From an uncultured Rhodospirillaceae bacterium (GTDB taxonomy: Bacteria > Pseudomonadota > Alphaproteobacteria > Dongiales > Dongiaceae): a stretch of DNA of 64,000 nt. The translations under genes and the position numbers were made by a program. Each line of letters begins with the position of its first letter. The stretch's first letter is position 1. The stretch lies in assembly GCA_964411425.1 (NCBI GenBank), contig CAYPKW010000002.1, forward strand, positions 45,512 through 109,511, written 5' to 3'. Positions 7,398 to 10,892 of the stretch are shown here, piece after piece. Under the pieces are notes generated by a model, which ran no database searches, was not told the origin of the DNA, and saw nothing but the letters and a program-made list of their open reading frames with translations.

Positions 7398-7763
7398 TCA
7401 ACCGCCTCGCCCGGGCGGGGGCCGGCGCCATTCAAGCACGGCGAGAAGGCAGCCGGTGTCGGTGCGCGAGTTGTGCCGGGTGCCTGGGCTGTAGCTCACG
7501 AAGTCGCCTGTGCGGAACACCGTGCCGTCGTCGTCGATGAGCTCGCCTTCGAGGACGACGAAATCCTCCATGCCCGCATGGTCGTGGGCGATGGTGACGG
7601 CGCCCGGCTGCATGCGCATGAGATAGCAGCCGTTGCCGGCGGCCCTGTCGTAGCTCACCGGCAGCCAGCCGATCTCCGGCTGCAGCGGACCTTCGAGGTC
7701 GTAGGGCAGGAACGCGGTCGAATCGGCTCTCACCACCTTCCGCCCCGCCACTTTCCTCTCCAT
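7398..7763 (-). CDS. stand-alone cupin protein resembling the C-terminal cupin of ChrR-type anti-sigma factors
   Basis: Cupin motif HDHAGMEDFVVLEGELIDDDG...GDFVSYSPGTRH. It is only 121 aa and has no N-terminal zinc-binding anti-sigma (ZAS) domain. It is divergent from the bufferin-type operon. Confidence 0.6.
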   Translation of the reverse strand: MERKVAGRKVVRADSTAFLPYDLEGPLQPEIGWLPVSYDRAAGNGCYLMRMQPGAVTIAHDHAGMEDFVVLEGELIDDDGTVFRTGDFVSYSPGTRHNSRTDTGCLLAVLEWRRPPPGRGG

Positions 7764-7888: not shown

Positions 7889-8191
7889 ATGAACCGCATG
7901 CATGTAAGCGCTGCGCTGGCCACGGCCGTCACCCTCGCATTGGCAATGCCGAGCGGGCCGGCCCGCGCGGATGCCGCCATGGACGAGATGATGAAGCAGG
8001 GCGAGATGGACATGAAGGCCGGCAAGATCGAAAAATGTTACGGCGTAAACGTCGCGGGCAAGAACGACTGCCAGACCGCGACGGCCTCCTGTGCCGGCTC
8101 CGCGACGAAGGACTTCGACAAGTCCGCGTTCATCATCGTGCCGTCGGGTACCTGCGGGAAGATCGCCGGCGGCAGCCCGTCGCCGTCCTGA
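7889..8191 (+). CDS. bufA: DUF2282-type four-Cys secreted peptide precursor (BufA1-like), copy 1, with Met-rich N-terminal extension
   Basis: SD GAGG lies 7 nt upstream. Signal peptide MNRMHVSAALATAVTLALAMPSGPARA is followed by DAAMDEMMKQGEMDMKAGKI. The core is [24 protein letters not shown]...PSGTCGKIAGGS. Confidence 0.85.
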   Translation: MNRMHVSAALATAVTLALAMPSGPARADAAMDEMMKQGEMDMKAGKIEKCYGVNVAGKNDCQTATASCAGSATKDFDKSAFIIVPSGTCGKIAGGSPSPS

Positions 8192-8470
8192 TCGCCTCGG
8201 CGGTCGCCGCACCGCCATCCGCGCCGGCGCTCCCGAGCGCCCGTCGATAGCCGCCGGGCATGAATCCCATAGGCAAATCATAGTTCCCCGGCGGCTCGCC
8301 GGATTGCTATGAGTGCCGGCGACCGCTGGCACGTCGCGCGGCCGGAAATCGGTACGTCAAATCTTCGTGAAACCAAGATGTTGCAGGCCGCCGACGATTG
8401 CCAAGCCATGTTAGCGTCGCCACGTCTGTCGGCGTCGCGACAATCCAACAAACTCTCAGGAGGACCGAAC

Positions 8471-8737
8471 ATGAAGACCCCGATTCTTGTCTCTACCGCC
8501 ATGGCCGCGGCGATCACGATTGCCAGCATGGCCGGCGCCCAGGCCGGCAAGGCCCCGGTGCCGAGCTACGAGAACGAGAAGTGTTTCGGCATCGCCTATG
8601 CCGGCAAGAACGACTGCCAGACCGCCAACAGCTCCTGCGCGGGAACCTCGAAGAAGGACCAGCAGGTCGACGCCTGGATCTACGTCCCGGCGGGGACCTG
8701 CGACAAGATCGTTGGCGGCAGCCTGCCAAAGACCTGA
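8471..8737 (+). CDS. bufA: DUF2282-type four-Cys secreted peptide precursor (BufA1-like), copy 2
   Basis: SD AGGAGG. Signal peptide [25 protein letters not shown], then core [24 protein letters not shown]...[12 protein letters not shown]. The longer ORF from 8309 has no support. Confidence 0.85.
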
Positions 8738-8768: not shown

Positions 8769-9653
8769 ATGTCGCGCATCGGCTCGACGACGTTCAAGCG
8801 GGGCCCGATCTCGGCCGCGGCCGGGATCGGGCTTCGCCAAGTTCACCACCGCGACGTCCTCGATGCCCGGCCGTCGGTGGGTTTCCTCGAGGTGCACCCG
8901 GAGAACTACCTGGGCGGCGGAGCCAATCTGCATTACCTGACCGAGCTGCGCCGCGACTACCCGATCAGCCTGCACGCCGTCGGGATCTCGCTCGGCACCG
9001 ACGGGCCGCTCGACCGCGAGCATCTGTCCCGCCTGGCGGAACTGGCGGAGCGCATCGAGCCGGCGCTGGTGTCGGAGCACTTGTCCTGGAGCATCGCCGA
9101 CGGCGTCTACCTCAACGACCTTCTGCCGTTGCCCTACACGGAGGAAGCCCTTGGCGTCGTGGCGCGCCACGTGGACGAGGTGCAGGAGTACCTGGGGCGC
9201 AAGATTCTGCTGGAGAATCCGTCCACCTACCTGCGCTTCGTCCATTCCAGCCTAAGCGAGCAGGAGTTCCTGGCCGAGGTCGCGCGCCGCACCGGCTGCG
9301 GCGTGCTCTTGGATGTGAACAATCTGTACGTCAGCGCGATGAACCACGGGTTCGAGCCCGATGCGTACCTGCGCGGACTGCCCGCGGCGATAGGCGAAAT
9401 CCATCTCGCCGGCCACAGCGTGAAACGGGTCGACGGCGTCAGCCTGCGCATCGACGACCACGGCTCGGCGGTCGATGCCGCCGTCTGGCGGTTGTACGAG
9501 AAGGCGCTCGCCAGGTTCGGGCCGCTGCCTACCCTCATCGAATGGGACACCGACATCCCGCCGCTGCCGGTTCTGGTCGGCGAAGCGGAAAAGGCGGCGG
9601 ACGCGCTGGCGAAGGCAGCGCGACGGGAGGCAGTCCATGCCGTCACTGCGTGA
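8769..9653 (+). CDS. bufB: DUF692 / MNIO-family (MbnB-like) TIM-barrel iron enzyme, BufB-like
   Basis: Typical DUF692 blocks GIGLRQVHH, LEVHPENY, SLHAVGISLG, VSEHLSW, LLENPS, DVNNLYVS, IHLAGH. Start is ATG 8769 (or GTG 8754), 32 nt after precursor copy 2. Confidence 0.85.
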   Translation: MSRIGSTTFKRGPISAAAGIGLRQVHHRDVLDARPSVGFLEVHPENYLGGGANLHYLTELRRDYPISLHAVGISLGTDGPLDREHLSRLAELAERIEPALVSEHLSWSIADGVYLNDLLPLPYTEEALGVVARHVDEVQEYLGRKILLENPSTYLRFVHSSLSEQEFLAEVARRTGCGVLLDVNNLYVSAMNHGFEPDAYLRGLPAAIGEIHLAGHSVKRVDGVSLRIDDHGSAVDAAVWRLYEKALARFGPLPTLIEWDTDIPPLPVLVGEAEKAADALAKAARREAVHAVTA

Positions 9654-10428
9654 GCTGCAGGGCGCGATCCGCGCCGGCATCCTGGGCGCGGGCGGCGACA
9701 GCGTATTGCCGCTGATCGTCCCCGATGGACTCAAGCCCGAGGGCCGGCTCGCGGTCTACCGCAACAACACGTTCATCAGTCTCACCGCGGCCCTGAAAGC
9801 CACCTTCCCCGTGGTCTGCCGCCTGGTCGACGAGCGTTTCTTCGCCTATGCCGCGGCCGCTTATGTTCGCGAGCGGCCGCCGACGCGGCCTTGCGTTGCC
9901 GAATACGGCGCCGACTTCGCCGATTTCCTGGCCGCCTTCGAGCCGGCCCGTCGGCTTGTCTATCTGCCCGACGTGGCGCGGCTCGAATGGGCCATCAACC
10001 TCGCCCGTCACGCCCCCGACGCCGCGATATTCGACCCGGCGCGGCTCGCGGCCGTGCCCGCCGAGCGGCAAGGGGCTGTCGCCTTCATCCTGCATCCCGC
10101 CTGCCGCCTCGTCACGTCAGGCTACCCGATCGAGCCGATCTGGCGGGCCAACCAGCCGGATGGCGATGGCGCGGCCGACCTTGCCGCCGGCCCGAGCCGC
10201 CTCATCGTCTATCGCCGGGTCCTCGACGTTCATCTCGCCGACCTCGGTGCCGCCGGTTACGCCTTCGCGGCGGCGCTCGCCCTGGGCCGGGCGTTGCAAC
10301 GGGCCTACGAGGCCGCCACCGCCGTCGATCTCGATTTCGATCTTGCCGTGGCGCTGCATTGGCATTTCGCCCGCGGGACCATCGCGGGCTTCATCCTTCC
10401 CGACAGAGACGATGGAGGCCACTCATGA
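9637..10428 (+). CDS. bufC: DUF2063-family partner protein, BufC-like
   Basis: MPSLRELQGAIRAGILG..., VYRNN..., LPDVARLEWA... match my recollection of DUF2063. SD GGGAGG. The start overlaps bufB by 17 nt. Confidence 0.75.
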   Translation: MPSLRELQGAIRAGILGAGGDSVLPLIVPDGLKPEGRLAVYRNNTFISLTAALKATFPVVCRLVDERFFAYAAAAYVRERPPTRPCVAEYGADFADFLAAFEPARRLVYLPDVARLEWAINLARHAPDAAIFDPARLAAVPAERQGAVAFILHPACRLVTSGYPIEPIWRANQPDGDGAADLAAGPSRLIVYRRVLDVHLADLGAAGYAFAAALALGRALQRAYEAATAVDLDFDLAVALHWHFARGTIAGFILPDRDDGGHS

Positions 10429-10892
10429 GTACCACGCTGCCCGAACGCACCGCCGTCACCGGGATTCCGGCGTTGATCGCCGCGATCATCGGCGCCGTGG
10501 AGAGGGTTCCCATCGCCATCCCGGCCTTCGTGCTGCGCCTTGGGGTGGCGCTCGTGTTCTGGCGCTCCGCCAAGACCAAGCTCGCCAACTGGGACCTGAC
10601 CGTCCAGCTCTTCGCCGACGAGTACAAGGTGCCGGTGCTGCCGCCCGAGGTCGCCGCCTTTCTGGCGACCTCGGTGGAGCTCGCCGCGCCCATCATGCTG
10701 CTCGTCGGGCTCGCGACGCGCCTCGGCGCCGCGGCCATGCTGGGCATGACGCTGGTGATCCAAATCTTCGTCTATCCGACGAGCTATCCGGATCACCTGC
10801 TGTGGGCGGGTCCGCTGCTGTACCTGGTCCTGCGCGGACCGGGCGCCATCTCGATCGATCACTTGATCCGCGGGCGTTACATCGGCGCGTGA
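10425..10892 (+). CDS. DoxX-family integral membrane protein
   Basis: Four predicted TM segments and a DoxX-like pattern (RLGVALVFWRSAKTKL...ELAAPIMLLVGLATRLGA...). ATGA start/stop overlap with bufC. Confidence 0.8.
   Translation: MSTTLPERTAVTGIPALIAAIIGAVERVPIAIPAFVLRLGVALVFWRSAKTKLANWDLTVQLFADEYKVPVLPPEVAAFLATSVELAAPIMLLVGLATRLGAAAMLGMTLVIQIFVYPTSYPDHLLWAGPLLYLVLRGPGAISIDHLIRGRYIGA

What the first reader, a model, noticed from the sequence alone, without database searches (positions are those of the whole stretch)
7970..8029. Met-rich segment between signal peptide and Cys core in precursor copy 1 only
Seen: after the predicted cleavage site (ARA/DA), copy 1 carries DAAMDEMMKQGEMDMKAGKI before the EKC core. 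That is five Met in the first 15-16 mature residues. Copy 2 has [10 protein letters not shown] at the same position and no Met.

Established: clustered Met (MxxM, MxM) motifs are Cu(I)/Ag(I) ligand sets in periplasmic copper proteins such as CusF, CopC/PcoC and CueO.

Inference: copy 1 may combine a thioether-based Cu(I) capture arm with the modified-Cys chelating core. Alternatively the Met-rich stretch may act as a recognition leader for the modifying enzymes. I am not aware of either arrangement being described for this peptide family.
Basis: partly seen in the sequence, partly recalled or inferred. Interest (0 to 1): 0.6.

Follow-up and report, generated by a model that had tools for sequence, protein, structure and literature searches.

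The report
Methionine-rich arm on a bufferin
One of two tandem precursors of a copper-binding periplasmic peptide (bufferin) has a conserved, helical, methionine-studded N-terminal arm that marks an undescribed subfamily and probably adds a copper(I)-capture site, though this still needs experiments.

Summary
Window 7970-8029 encodes D28-I47 (DAAMDEMMKQGEMDMKAGKI) of a 100-aa BufA1/DUF2282 bufferin precursor. It lies just after an A-R-A signal-peptidase site and holds five Met in 12 residues. Copy 2 has none there.

The arm is not a local oddity. Forty-seven relatives (60-100% identical) keep Met at -19, -16 and -15 from the first Cys in 47/47, and M or I at -8. These residues sit on one face of a helix that AlphaFold predicts with confidence.

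Different Met-rich arms occur in other BufA1 lineages, where they are the sole precursors of complete clusters. So a second plain precursor is not required.

This clade normally sits as a BufA1-DoxX pair (13 contexts). It follows an ECF-type promoter, lies near copper genes and has no adjacent MNIO or DUF2063. That argues against a leader role. The window's position beside a full bufABCD operon looks derived.

Best reading (about 0.5): a thioether Cu(I)/Ag(I) capture arm or lid on the Cys core.

None of the four bufferin/MNIO papers I searched mentions methionine. The scan earlier noted Met-rich C-terminal tails on bufferins in other genomes.

Verdict: new variant of a known kind, moderate interest.

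The parts
7889..8191 (+). bufA1 copy 1: 100-aa DUF2282/BufA1 precursor carrying the Met-rich arm (stop codon included)
   Evidence: PF10048 at 72.5 bits against a cut-off of 22.4. GAGG lies 7 nt before the ATG. 46 close relatives.
7889..7969 (+). Sec signal peptide M1-A27 (n-region MNRMH, h-region VSAALATAVTLALAM, c-region PSGPARA)
   Evidence: Read from the sequence with the -3/-1 rule (A25, A27). Relatives end in P-x-R-A-A. No predictor tool was available.
7970..8029 (+). Met-rich N-terminal arm D28-I47. The predicted amphipathic helix covers about residues 29-43. M31, M34, M35 and M42 share one face; M40 lies on the opposite face.
   Evidence: AlphaFold2 predicts a helix at 24-43, with pLDDT 84 for residues 31-40 and 91 for 41-50. 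The first run gave a helix at 29-43. Met at -19, -16 and -15 are 47/47 invariant; -8 is 27 M, 19 I, 1 L. Wheel angles span 240-340 degrees.
8030..8188 (+). Four-Cys bufferin core E48-S100 (C50, C61, C68, C89). The central NDCQTATASCAG loop is nearly identical to that of copy 2.
   Evidence: Alignments. C50, N59, D60, C61, C68, G70, P85, G87 and C89 are invariant.
8192..8470 (+). 279-nt spacer between the two precursor genes. Window 8192-8330 folds strongly. An ECF-like motif GAAACC-N17-CGAC lies at 8369-8395.
   Evidence: MFE -72.7 kcal/mol, z = -3.1. No intrinsic terminator by the simple scan. Motif read.
8471..8737 (+). bufA1 copy 2: plain 88-aa precursor with a short arm ([10 protein letters not shown]) and no Met
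   Evidence: PF10048 at 86.7 bits.
8769..9653 (+). bufB, an MNIO (MbnB/TglH/ChrH family). It is the only MNIO gene found in the genome.
   Evidence: PF05114 at 343.6 bits. Own-genome search found one match.
9637..10428 (+). bufC, the DUF2063 partner protein
   Evidence: PF09836 at 79.1 bits.
10425..10892 (+). bufD, a DoxX-family membrane protein
   Evidence: PF07681 at 62 bits.
7398..7763 (-). Divergent ChrR-type cupin-only protein (121 aa). It is also the upstream neighbour of the Met-arm gene in the closest relative.
   Evidence: PF12973 at 54.5 bits. 82% identical copy at the same position in L003/G477.

Best explanation
**What it is (shown).** Copy 1 is a BufA1-family bufferin precursor of a distinct 'MxxMM-arm' subfamily.

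**Proposed mechanism (inferred).**
- After Sec export and cleavage at A-R-A|D28, the mature peptide keeps a roughly 20-residue N-terminal amphipathic helix.
- One face of the helix carries three invariant Met (M31, M34, M35) plus an M/I position (M42).
- An invariant A-G-K-I-E-K turn joins the helix to the first strand and first Cys.
- The Met face most likely supplies thioether ligands for a soft metal, Cu(I) or Ag(I). It could be a first-contact capture arm, since it leaves the translocon before the core. It could also be a lid over the two central Cys, which BufB/BufC normally convert to 5-thiooxazoles.
- Either way it would add capacity or speed to periplasmic copper buffering.

**Context (shown).** The subfamily's usual unit is a two-gene BufA1-DoxX pair behind an ECF-type promoter near copper genes. 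In this genome the gene sits directly upstream of a complete bufA-B-C-D operon, which looks like a derived arrangement.
For: **Conservation**
- 47 sequences at 60-100% identity keep Met at -19, -16 and -15 in 47/47, with no L, I or V substitution. Neighbouring arm positions vary by 0.5-2.1 bits.
- Synonymous changes in arm codons confirm the reading frame.

**Structure**
- AlphaFold2 with 98 sequences predicts a helix through residues 24-43, with pLDDT 84-91 over residues 31-50.
- The conserved Met fall within a 100-degree arc of the helical wheel.

**Recurrence of Met-rich add-ons**
- Burkholderiales: MDMSKMPQMVKDNMMRMEKNKLEKC.
- Xanthobacteraceae: AMRAMMNFIKKKMQREHLEMC.
- Methylococcales-type: MSKMDKMGKMEKC.
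- Others carry up to 8 Met.
- Three C-terminal Met-rich tails also appeared in my set.
- Many of these are G/S/P/K-rich, which does not fit a purely structural role.

**Genomic context**
- Neighbours include CopC/CopD, cupredoxins, CusB, ScsC/DsbD, SCO1, and ECF sigma with NrsF.
- A conserved GTAAC[CT]-N15/16-CGAA promoter-like motif lies upstream.
- In this genome, four of the other real genes with comparable Met clusters are two multicopper oxidases (one Pfam-confirmed), an LTXXQ protein and a cytochrome c.

**Known biology**
- Buf1 binds one Cu through 2N+2S, with KD about 7e-20 M for Cu+. It is thought to load as it emerges from Sec (PMC11626156).
- MxxM and MxM motifs as Cu(I)/Ag(I) ligand sets (CusF/CusB, CopC/PcoC, CueO, SilE/PcoE) are established knowledge, cited from memory.
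Against: - No metal-binding, mass-spectrometry or expression data exist for any member.
- Position -8 exchanges M with I. In the wider alignment the -19/-16/-15 positions are A, V or L in some Burkholderiales sequences. This is what a hydrophobic packing stripe would show.
- The tool returns no model coordinates, so I could not test whether the Met face lies near the Cys loop.
- Most clade members lack an adjacent MNIO, so the core chemistry the arm would cooperate with (thiooxazole or plain thiol) is unknown.
- The core-only tree is poorly resolved (2 of 190 branches well supported). Independent origins of Met arms are therefore suggested but not shown.
Confidence: 0.5

Rival explanations
1. 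Structural or docking helix. The Met-lined face is simply a flexible hydrophobic surface. It packs on the bufferin beta-sheet or binds a partner such as the co-encoded DoxX membrane protein, and has no direct metal ligation.
For: - M/I exchange at -8 (27 M, 19 I).
- V, I or A at stripe positions in the VKDNMARM-type arms.
- High pLDDT at the helix-strand junction and an invariant G at -5.
- DoxX directly follows the gene in 13 contexts.
Against: - Three Met are invariant in 47/47 without a single L, I or V replacement.
- Other lineages carry Met-rich arms and tails that are G/S/P-rich and unlikely to be helical.
- Plain BufA1-DoxX pairs exist without any arm (L026, L029, L093), so DoxX does not require the arm.
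Confidence: 0.2
2. Sacrificial antioxidant. Surface Met act as an oxidant sink (Met sulfoxide) that protects the Cys or thiooxazole site under copper or oxidative stress.
For: - Redox neighbours: AhpC/TSA, DsbA-like, ScsC, DsbD and thioredoxin-fold genes near clade members.
- ECF sigma/NrsF-type control.
- Earlier scan notes report bufferin clusters beside exported Msr genes in other genomes (I did not check these).
Against: - No Msr gene appears in any of the neighbourhoods I read.
- An oxidant sink would not need three invariant positions on one helix face.
Confidence: 0.12
3. Follower or leader-like recognition element that recruits BufB/BufC (the RRE-like domain of DUF2063) to this precursor.
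For: In the window, and in the Burkholderiales and Xanthobacteraceae loci, long-arm precursors sit directly upstream of BufB-BufC.
Against: - 0 of 10 clade loci in the metagenome scan have BufB in the flank, against 63 of 70 short-arm loci.
- None of 7 further clade contigs has an MNIO or DUF2063 within 6 kb.
- Copy 2 and most family members are processed or encoded without such an arm.
- Caulobacter BufA1 is modified without even its signal peptide (PMC11626156).
Confidence: 0.05

Closest known systems
Bufferin 1 (BufA1, DUF2282/PF10048) and the bufA1B1C1D1 cluster of Caulobacter vibrioides (Leprevost et al., PNAS 2024, PMC11626156; family landscape in PMC12452194)
   Same: - Sec signal peptide, four-Cys core and the NDC...SCAG loop.
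- Adjacent MNIO, DUF2063 and DoxX genes in the window.
- Tandem precursors and MNIO-less stand-alone precursors are already reported for the family.
   Different: - Adds a conserved 20-residue Met-lined helix between the signal peptide and the core.
- The clade is typically a BufA1-DoxX pair without an adjacent MNIO.
- Word searches of these papers found no mention of methionine or of N-terminal arms.
Met-motif Cu(I)/Ag(I) sites of periplasmic copper proteins (CusF/CusB three-Met sites, CopC/PcoC Met loops, the CueO Met-rich helix, SilE/PcoE MxxH/HxxM helices). Named from established knowledge.
   Same: Clustered MxxM and MM on one face of a helix, in an exported protein encoded among copper-homeostasis genes.
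   Different: No sequence or fold relationship. Pfam finds only DUF2282 and the PDB gives no match by sequence or fold. The arm is an appendage on a RiPP-type core, not a separate protein.
Met-rich C-terminal tails on BufA1 precursors, noted earlier in this scan on other genomes (e1-5254022, e1-1122414)
   Same: A Met-plus-charged-residue appendage on the same core family. Those notes proposed the same pair of roles, Cu(I) capture or oxidant sink. I saw three such tails in my own set (P0188, P0238, P0268).
   Different: - Here the appendage is N-terminal.
- It is a short ordered helix with three fixed Met.
- It is tied to the MNIO-less BufA1-DoxX arrangement.

Membership tests
BufA1 / DUF2282 bufferin precursor | Match to PF10048 above the curated cut-off | tested here: met
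   72.5 bits against 22.4 for copy 1, and 86.7 bits for copy 2.
BufA1 / DUF2282 bufferin precursor | N-terminal Sec signal peptide with an AxA-type site | tested here: met
   By inspection only: n/h/c regions and A25-R-A27. The site is conserved in relatives. No predictor was available.
BufA1 / DUF2282 bufferin precursor | Four conserved Cys with family spacing (EKC...NDC...SC...GxC) | tested here: met
   C50, C61, C68 and C89 are invariant across 98 sequences.
Bufferin biosynthetic gene cluster | Precursor genetically linked to an MNIO (PF05114), DUF2063 (PF09836) and DoxX | tested here: met
   All three lie downstream in the window. For the clade as a whole this feature is mostly not met: 13 contexts have DoxX only.
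Bufferin (mature RiPP) | The central Cys are converted to 5-thiooxazoles and the outer Cys form a disulfide | not testable with these tools
   Needs mass spectrometry. The loop around the two central Cys is almost identical to that of copy 2.
Bufferin (mature RiPP) | Binds Cu(I)/Cu(II) and protects against copper | not testable with these tools
   Only context is available: copper genes lie near clade members.
Met-motif Cu(I)/Ag(I) binding proteins (CusF, CopC/PcoC, SilE/PcoE) | Homology to one of these families | tested here: not met
   No Pfam family other than DUF2282. No PDB match by sequence or fold. The resemblance is at motif level only.
RiPP leader or recognition peptide | Co-occurs with the modifying enzyme and its RRE partner | tested here: not met
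   0 of 10 clade loci have BufB in the flank, against 63 of 70 short-arm loci.

The most novel reading that the evidence does not exclude
The MxxMM-arm BufA1-DoxX pairs may form an MNIO-independent class of DUF2282 proteins. In this reading they are not RiPPs. Unmodified central Cys thiolates and the Met face of the N-terminal helix would together form the Cu(I) site, with DoxX as the redox partner. The window would then show such a protein secondarily parked beside a true bufferin operon.
Probability: 0.2. Interest if true: 0.65.

Novelty: new variant of a known kind. Interest (0 to 1): 0.45.

Why it matters
Bufferins are a recently described and very widespread periplasmic defence against copper. 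Only plain-core members have been characterised.

A conserved Met-lined arm would mean that the family tunes metal capacity, kinetics or selectivity (Cu(I)/Ag(I)) with modular add-ons. Related Met-rich arms and tails in other lineages point the same way.

The tight link of this clade to MNIO-less BufA1-DoxX pairs gives a concrete test case for two open questions. One is whether stand-alone DUF2282 proteins are modified in trans or work unmodified. The other is what DoxX does.

Tried and rejected
- **PDB searches.** The sequence-profile search and the Foldseek search of the AlphaFold model found nothing useful.
- **NCBIfam.** Only weak, sub-threshold BufA2 hits; no BufA1 model matched.
- **Plasmid collection (tblastn).** 85 records hold the core, but none holds the arm.
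- **Covariation of the arm with Phe/Trp on the beta-sheet face.** Met-arm proteins are nearly all Phe-type, but so are 65 of 152 plain W/F-type ones, and the signal is confounded by kinship. I dropped it.
- **Core-only tree.** The Met-arm label is clustered (17 changes against about 30 in shuffles). The tree is too weak to decide between one and several origins.
- **Class-level sample of 400 genomes.** No clade member other than the window's own genome.
- **Chance or low complexity.** Rejected on the conservation data.

Full report
**Observation**

The ORF at 7889-8191(+) encodes a 100-aa protein: MNRMHVSAALATAVTLALAMPSGPARA|[44 protein letters not shown]...GTCGKIAGGSPSPS. Window 7970-8029 is exactly D28-I47. 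Five Met (residues 31, 34, 35, 40, 42) fall within 12 residues.

The second copy (8471-8737) has [10 protein letters not shown] at this position and no Met. A25-R-A27 fits the signal-peptidase -3/-1 rule; I judged this by eye, since no predictor was available.

A cluster of this kind is very unlikely by chance, about 1e-6 to 1e-7 per window. Only 21 of all six-frame open frames in the 3.0-Mb genome reach 5 Met in 12 residues. Four of the real genes among them are two multicopper oxidases with (GGMM)n inserts (one confirmed by Pfam, the other read by eye as its paralogue), an LTXXQ periplasmic protein and a cytochrome c.

**What the locus is**

Both small ORFs match PF10048 (DUF2282/BufA1) well above its cut-off. 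They are followed by:
- an MNIO (PF05114, 344 bits),
- a DUF2063 protein,
- a DoxX protein.

A cupin-only ChrR-like gene lies divergently upstream. This is a bufferin-1 gene cluster as described in Caulobacter (PMC11626156). Tandem precursors and precursors not linked to an MNIO are already reported for the family (PMC12452194). The genome holds only these two DUF2282 genes, one MNIO and no NrsF.

**Is the arm conserved?**

Yes. A search of 5.8 billion proteins returned 46 clusters, 60-89% identical over the full length. All carry A-[DS]-[AP]-[AE]-M-E-[KQ]-M-M-...-[MI]-K-A-G-K-I-E-K-C. I counted positions back from the first Cys in 47 sequences:

| Position | Residues |
|---|---|
| -19 | M, 47/47 |
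| -16 | M, 47/47 |
| -15 | M, 47/47 |
| -8 | 27 M, 19 I, 1 L |
| -5, -3, -2, -1 | G, I, E, K, all invariant |

The positions in between vary. The window's extra Met40 is not conserved. Synonymous differences in arm codons confirm the frame.

AlphaFold2 with a 98-sequence alignment predicts a continuous helix through residues 24-43. The pLDDT is 84 for residues 31-40 and 91 for 41-50. The helix is followed by the first strand; a shallower run gave a helix at 29-43. On a helical wheel M31, M34, M35, G/A38, M42 and G45 span 240-340 degrees, which is one face. M40 lies opposite.

**Does it recur elsewhere in the family?**

Yes, in different forms.
- Burkholderiales genomes carry ...MDMSKMPQMVKDNMMRMEKNKLEKC.
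- Xanthobacteraceae MAGs carry ...AMRAMMNFIKKKMQREHLEMC.

Both align to the window's arm without gaps, with Met again at -19, -16 and -8 in some members. In those loci they are the only precursor, directly upstream of BufB-BufC(-DoxX).

A profile search of 1.84 billion representatives found 1341 family members. Among the top 150 there were many further Met-rich arms, for example:
- MSKMDKMGKMEKC, Methylococcales-type, inside a full cluster in L115;
- MQMTPKQSKMQMQKTMAYMKK;
- one arm with 8 Met.

Samples not biased by the query show the trait is uncommon:
- 0 of 73 non-clade hits have 3 or more Met in positions -22 to -4;
- 1 of 31 BufA1 sequences read from the 30 best loci of a 400-genome class sample does.

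A tree built on the core alone places the MEKMM clade (SH-aLRT 91) apart from the VKDNMARM group (94). The Met-arm label needs 17 changes against about 30 for shuffled labels. The tree is too weak to exclude a single origin.

Three proteins in my set carry Met-rich C-terminal tails instead. This agrees with earlier, unchecked scan notes on other genomes.

**Context of this clade**

In seven distinct metagenome contigs the Met-arm gene is immediately followed by DoxX. No MNIO or DUF2063 lies within 6 kb. A divergent ECF sigma with NrsF or a zf-HC2 anti-sigma is often present, and copper genes lie nearby: CopC/CopD, cupredoxins, CusB, ScsC/DsbD, SCO1.

A targeted metagenome scan added five more such pairs. 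It also gave a clean contrast:

| Locus type | BufB in the flank |
|---|---|
| Clade loci | 0 of 10 |
| Short-arm loci | 63 of 70 |

These counts are not independent of kinship.

A GTAAC[CT]-N15/16-CGAA motif lies 75-80 nt upstream of the start codon in five of the seven clade loci examined (two more carry a GTAACC...TGAA variant read by eye) and in the four Burkholderiales loci. From memory, it resembles the Caulobacter sigma-F promoter. The window's copy 1 lacks this motif.

Within the window's own order (83 genomes, one family), only three genomes carry the arm. The family is Dongiaceae, judged from the NCBI name of a cluster member on a contig of the same length as G449's.

| Genome | Arrangement |
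|---|---|
| G000 (the window) | Arm gene 279 nt upstream of plain bufA-B-C-D |
| G477 / L003 | Arm gene, then an AhpC/TSA gene and a C92 amidase gene, then two plain precursors and bufBCD |
| G449 | Arm gene plus DoxX on one contig; two plain precursors plus DoxX on another; on a third, a BufB-BufC pair (55% identical to the window's BufB) with no adjacent precursor, beside a Buf2-type cluster |

All three genomes therefore have a Buf1-type MNIO somewhere, so modification in trans is possible but unproven. The BufA1-DoxX pair looks like the usual state for the clade, and the window's arrangement looks derived.

**Mechanism**

- *Shown:* a conserved helical arm retained after the predicted cleavage site; three invariant Met on one face; copper-related and ECF-regulated neighbourhoods; independence from an adjacent MNIO.
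- *Inferred:* the Met face provides thioether ligands for Cu(I)/Ag(I).

The inferred role fits several points:
- Met is strictly kept at three positions, with no L, I or V replacement.
- Met-rich add-ons of non-helical composition recur at either end of the core.
- In this genome, Met clusters otherwise mark copper proteins.
- Buf1 is reported to load copper while it emerges from Sec, and the arm emerges first (PMC11626156).

A structural hydrophobic stripe remains a serious rival, given M/I at -8 and V, I or A at equivalent positions in other groups. The two are not exclusive, because a Met-lined lid over the Cys loop would satisfy both. An oxidant-sink role is possible. A leader role is unlikely.

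**Comparison and novelty**

The protein is a member of the BufA1 family: Pfam match, signal peptide, Cys pattern and, in this window, the cluster. It resembles CusF/CopC/CueO/SilE-type Met sites only at motif level, with no homology.

Word searches of the PNAS paper, its preprint, the MNIO landscape paper and the thiooxazole-metallophore preprint found no mention of methionine. A library-wide search found no paper that pairs DUF2282 with 'methionine-rich'.

I therefore rate it a new variant of a known kind, of moderate interest.

Noticed in passing
L038, L041, L075, L077, L078, L004, L006, L009, L010 (about 75-80 nt upstream of bufA1); window 8369-8395: A conserved ECF-type motif, GTAAC[CT]-N15/16-CGAA, precedes Met-arm BufA1-DoxX pairs and the Burkholderiales clusters. 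The window's copy 1 lacks it. Copy 2 is preceded by a degenerate GAAACC-N17-CGAC, although the genome has no NrsF gene.
   Followed up: partly
window 8192-8330: The spacer between the two precursor genes folds unusually strongly (-72.7 kcal/mol, z = -3.1) and has no T-run. It might uncouple or tune expression of the two precursors.
   Followed up: partly
L094 (G449:C131:54000-66000): A related Dongiaceae genome has a BufB-BufC pair with no adjacent precursor, next to a Buf2-type cluster whose precursor carries CKGQNAC repeats. Its BufA1 genes sit elsewhere with DoxX only. This looks like a dispersed bufferin system.
   Followed up: partly
L003 5579-6996: In the closest relative, an AhpC/TSA peroxiredoxin gene and a C92 permuted-papain amidase gene lie between the Met-arm precursor and two plain precursors.
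   Followed up: yes
own genome, contigs C73, C11, C83, C26 (outside the window): Other extreme Met clusters in the genome: two multicopper oxidases with (GGMM)n inserts, an LTXXQ protein with a Met/Gly/Pro region of roughly 85 residues, a cytochrome c with a Met/His-rich N-terminus, and a small exported GMGPGMMGPGMM-repeat peptide.
   Followed up: partly
L046 (G205:C1:231839-235117): An alphaproteobacterial genome has two different long-arm BufA1 genes in tandem (DMPQIVKDNMMRAKAQHLEKC and ATMQQKLEQMLKMHPG...ANMKRVAKNHLARC).
   Followed up: no
window 7398-7763 (-): A ChrR-type cupin domain protein without the anti-sigma zinc domain sits divergently next to the Met-arm gene, both here and in G477/L003 (82% identical).
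   Followed up: no
P0188, P0238, P0268: Three BufA1 representatives carry Met-rich C-terminal tails (for example GMAKDGEKNGMAKDAMSSDSEM). This echoes earlier scan notes of Met-rich tails on bufferins.
   Followed up: partly
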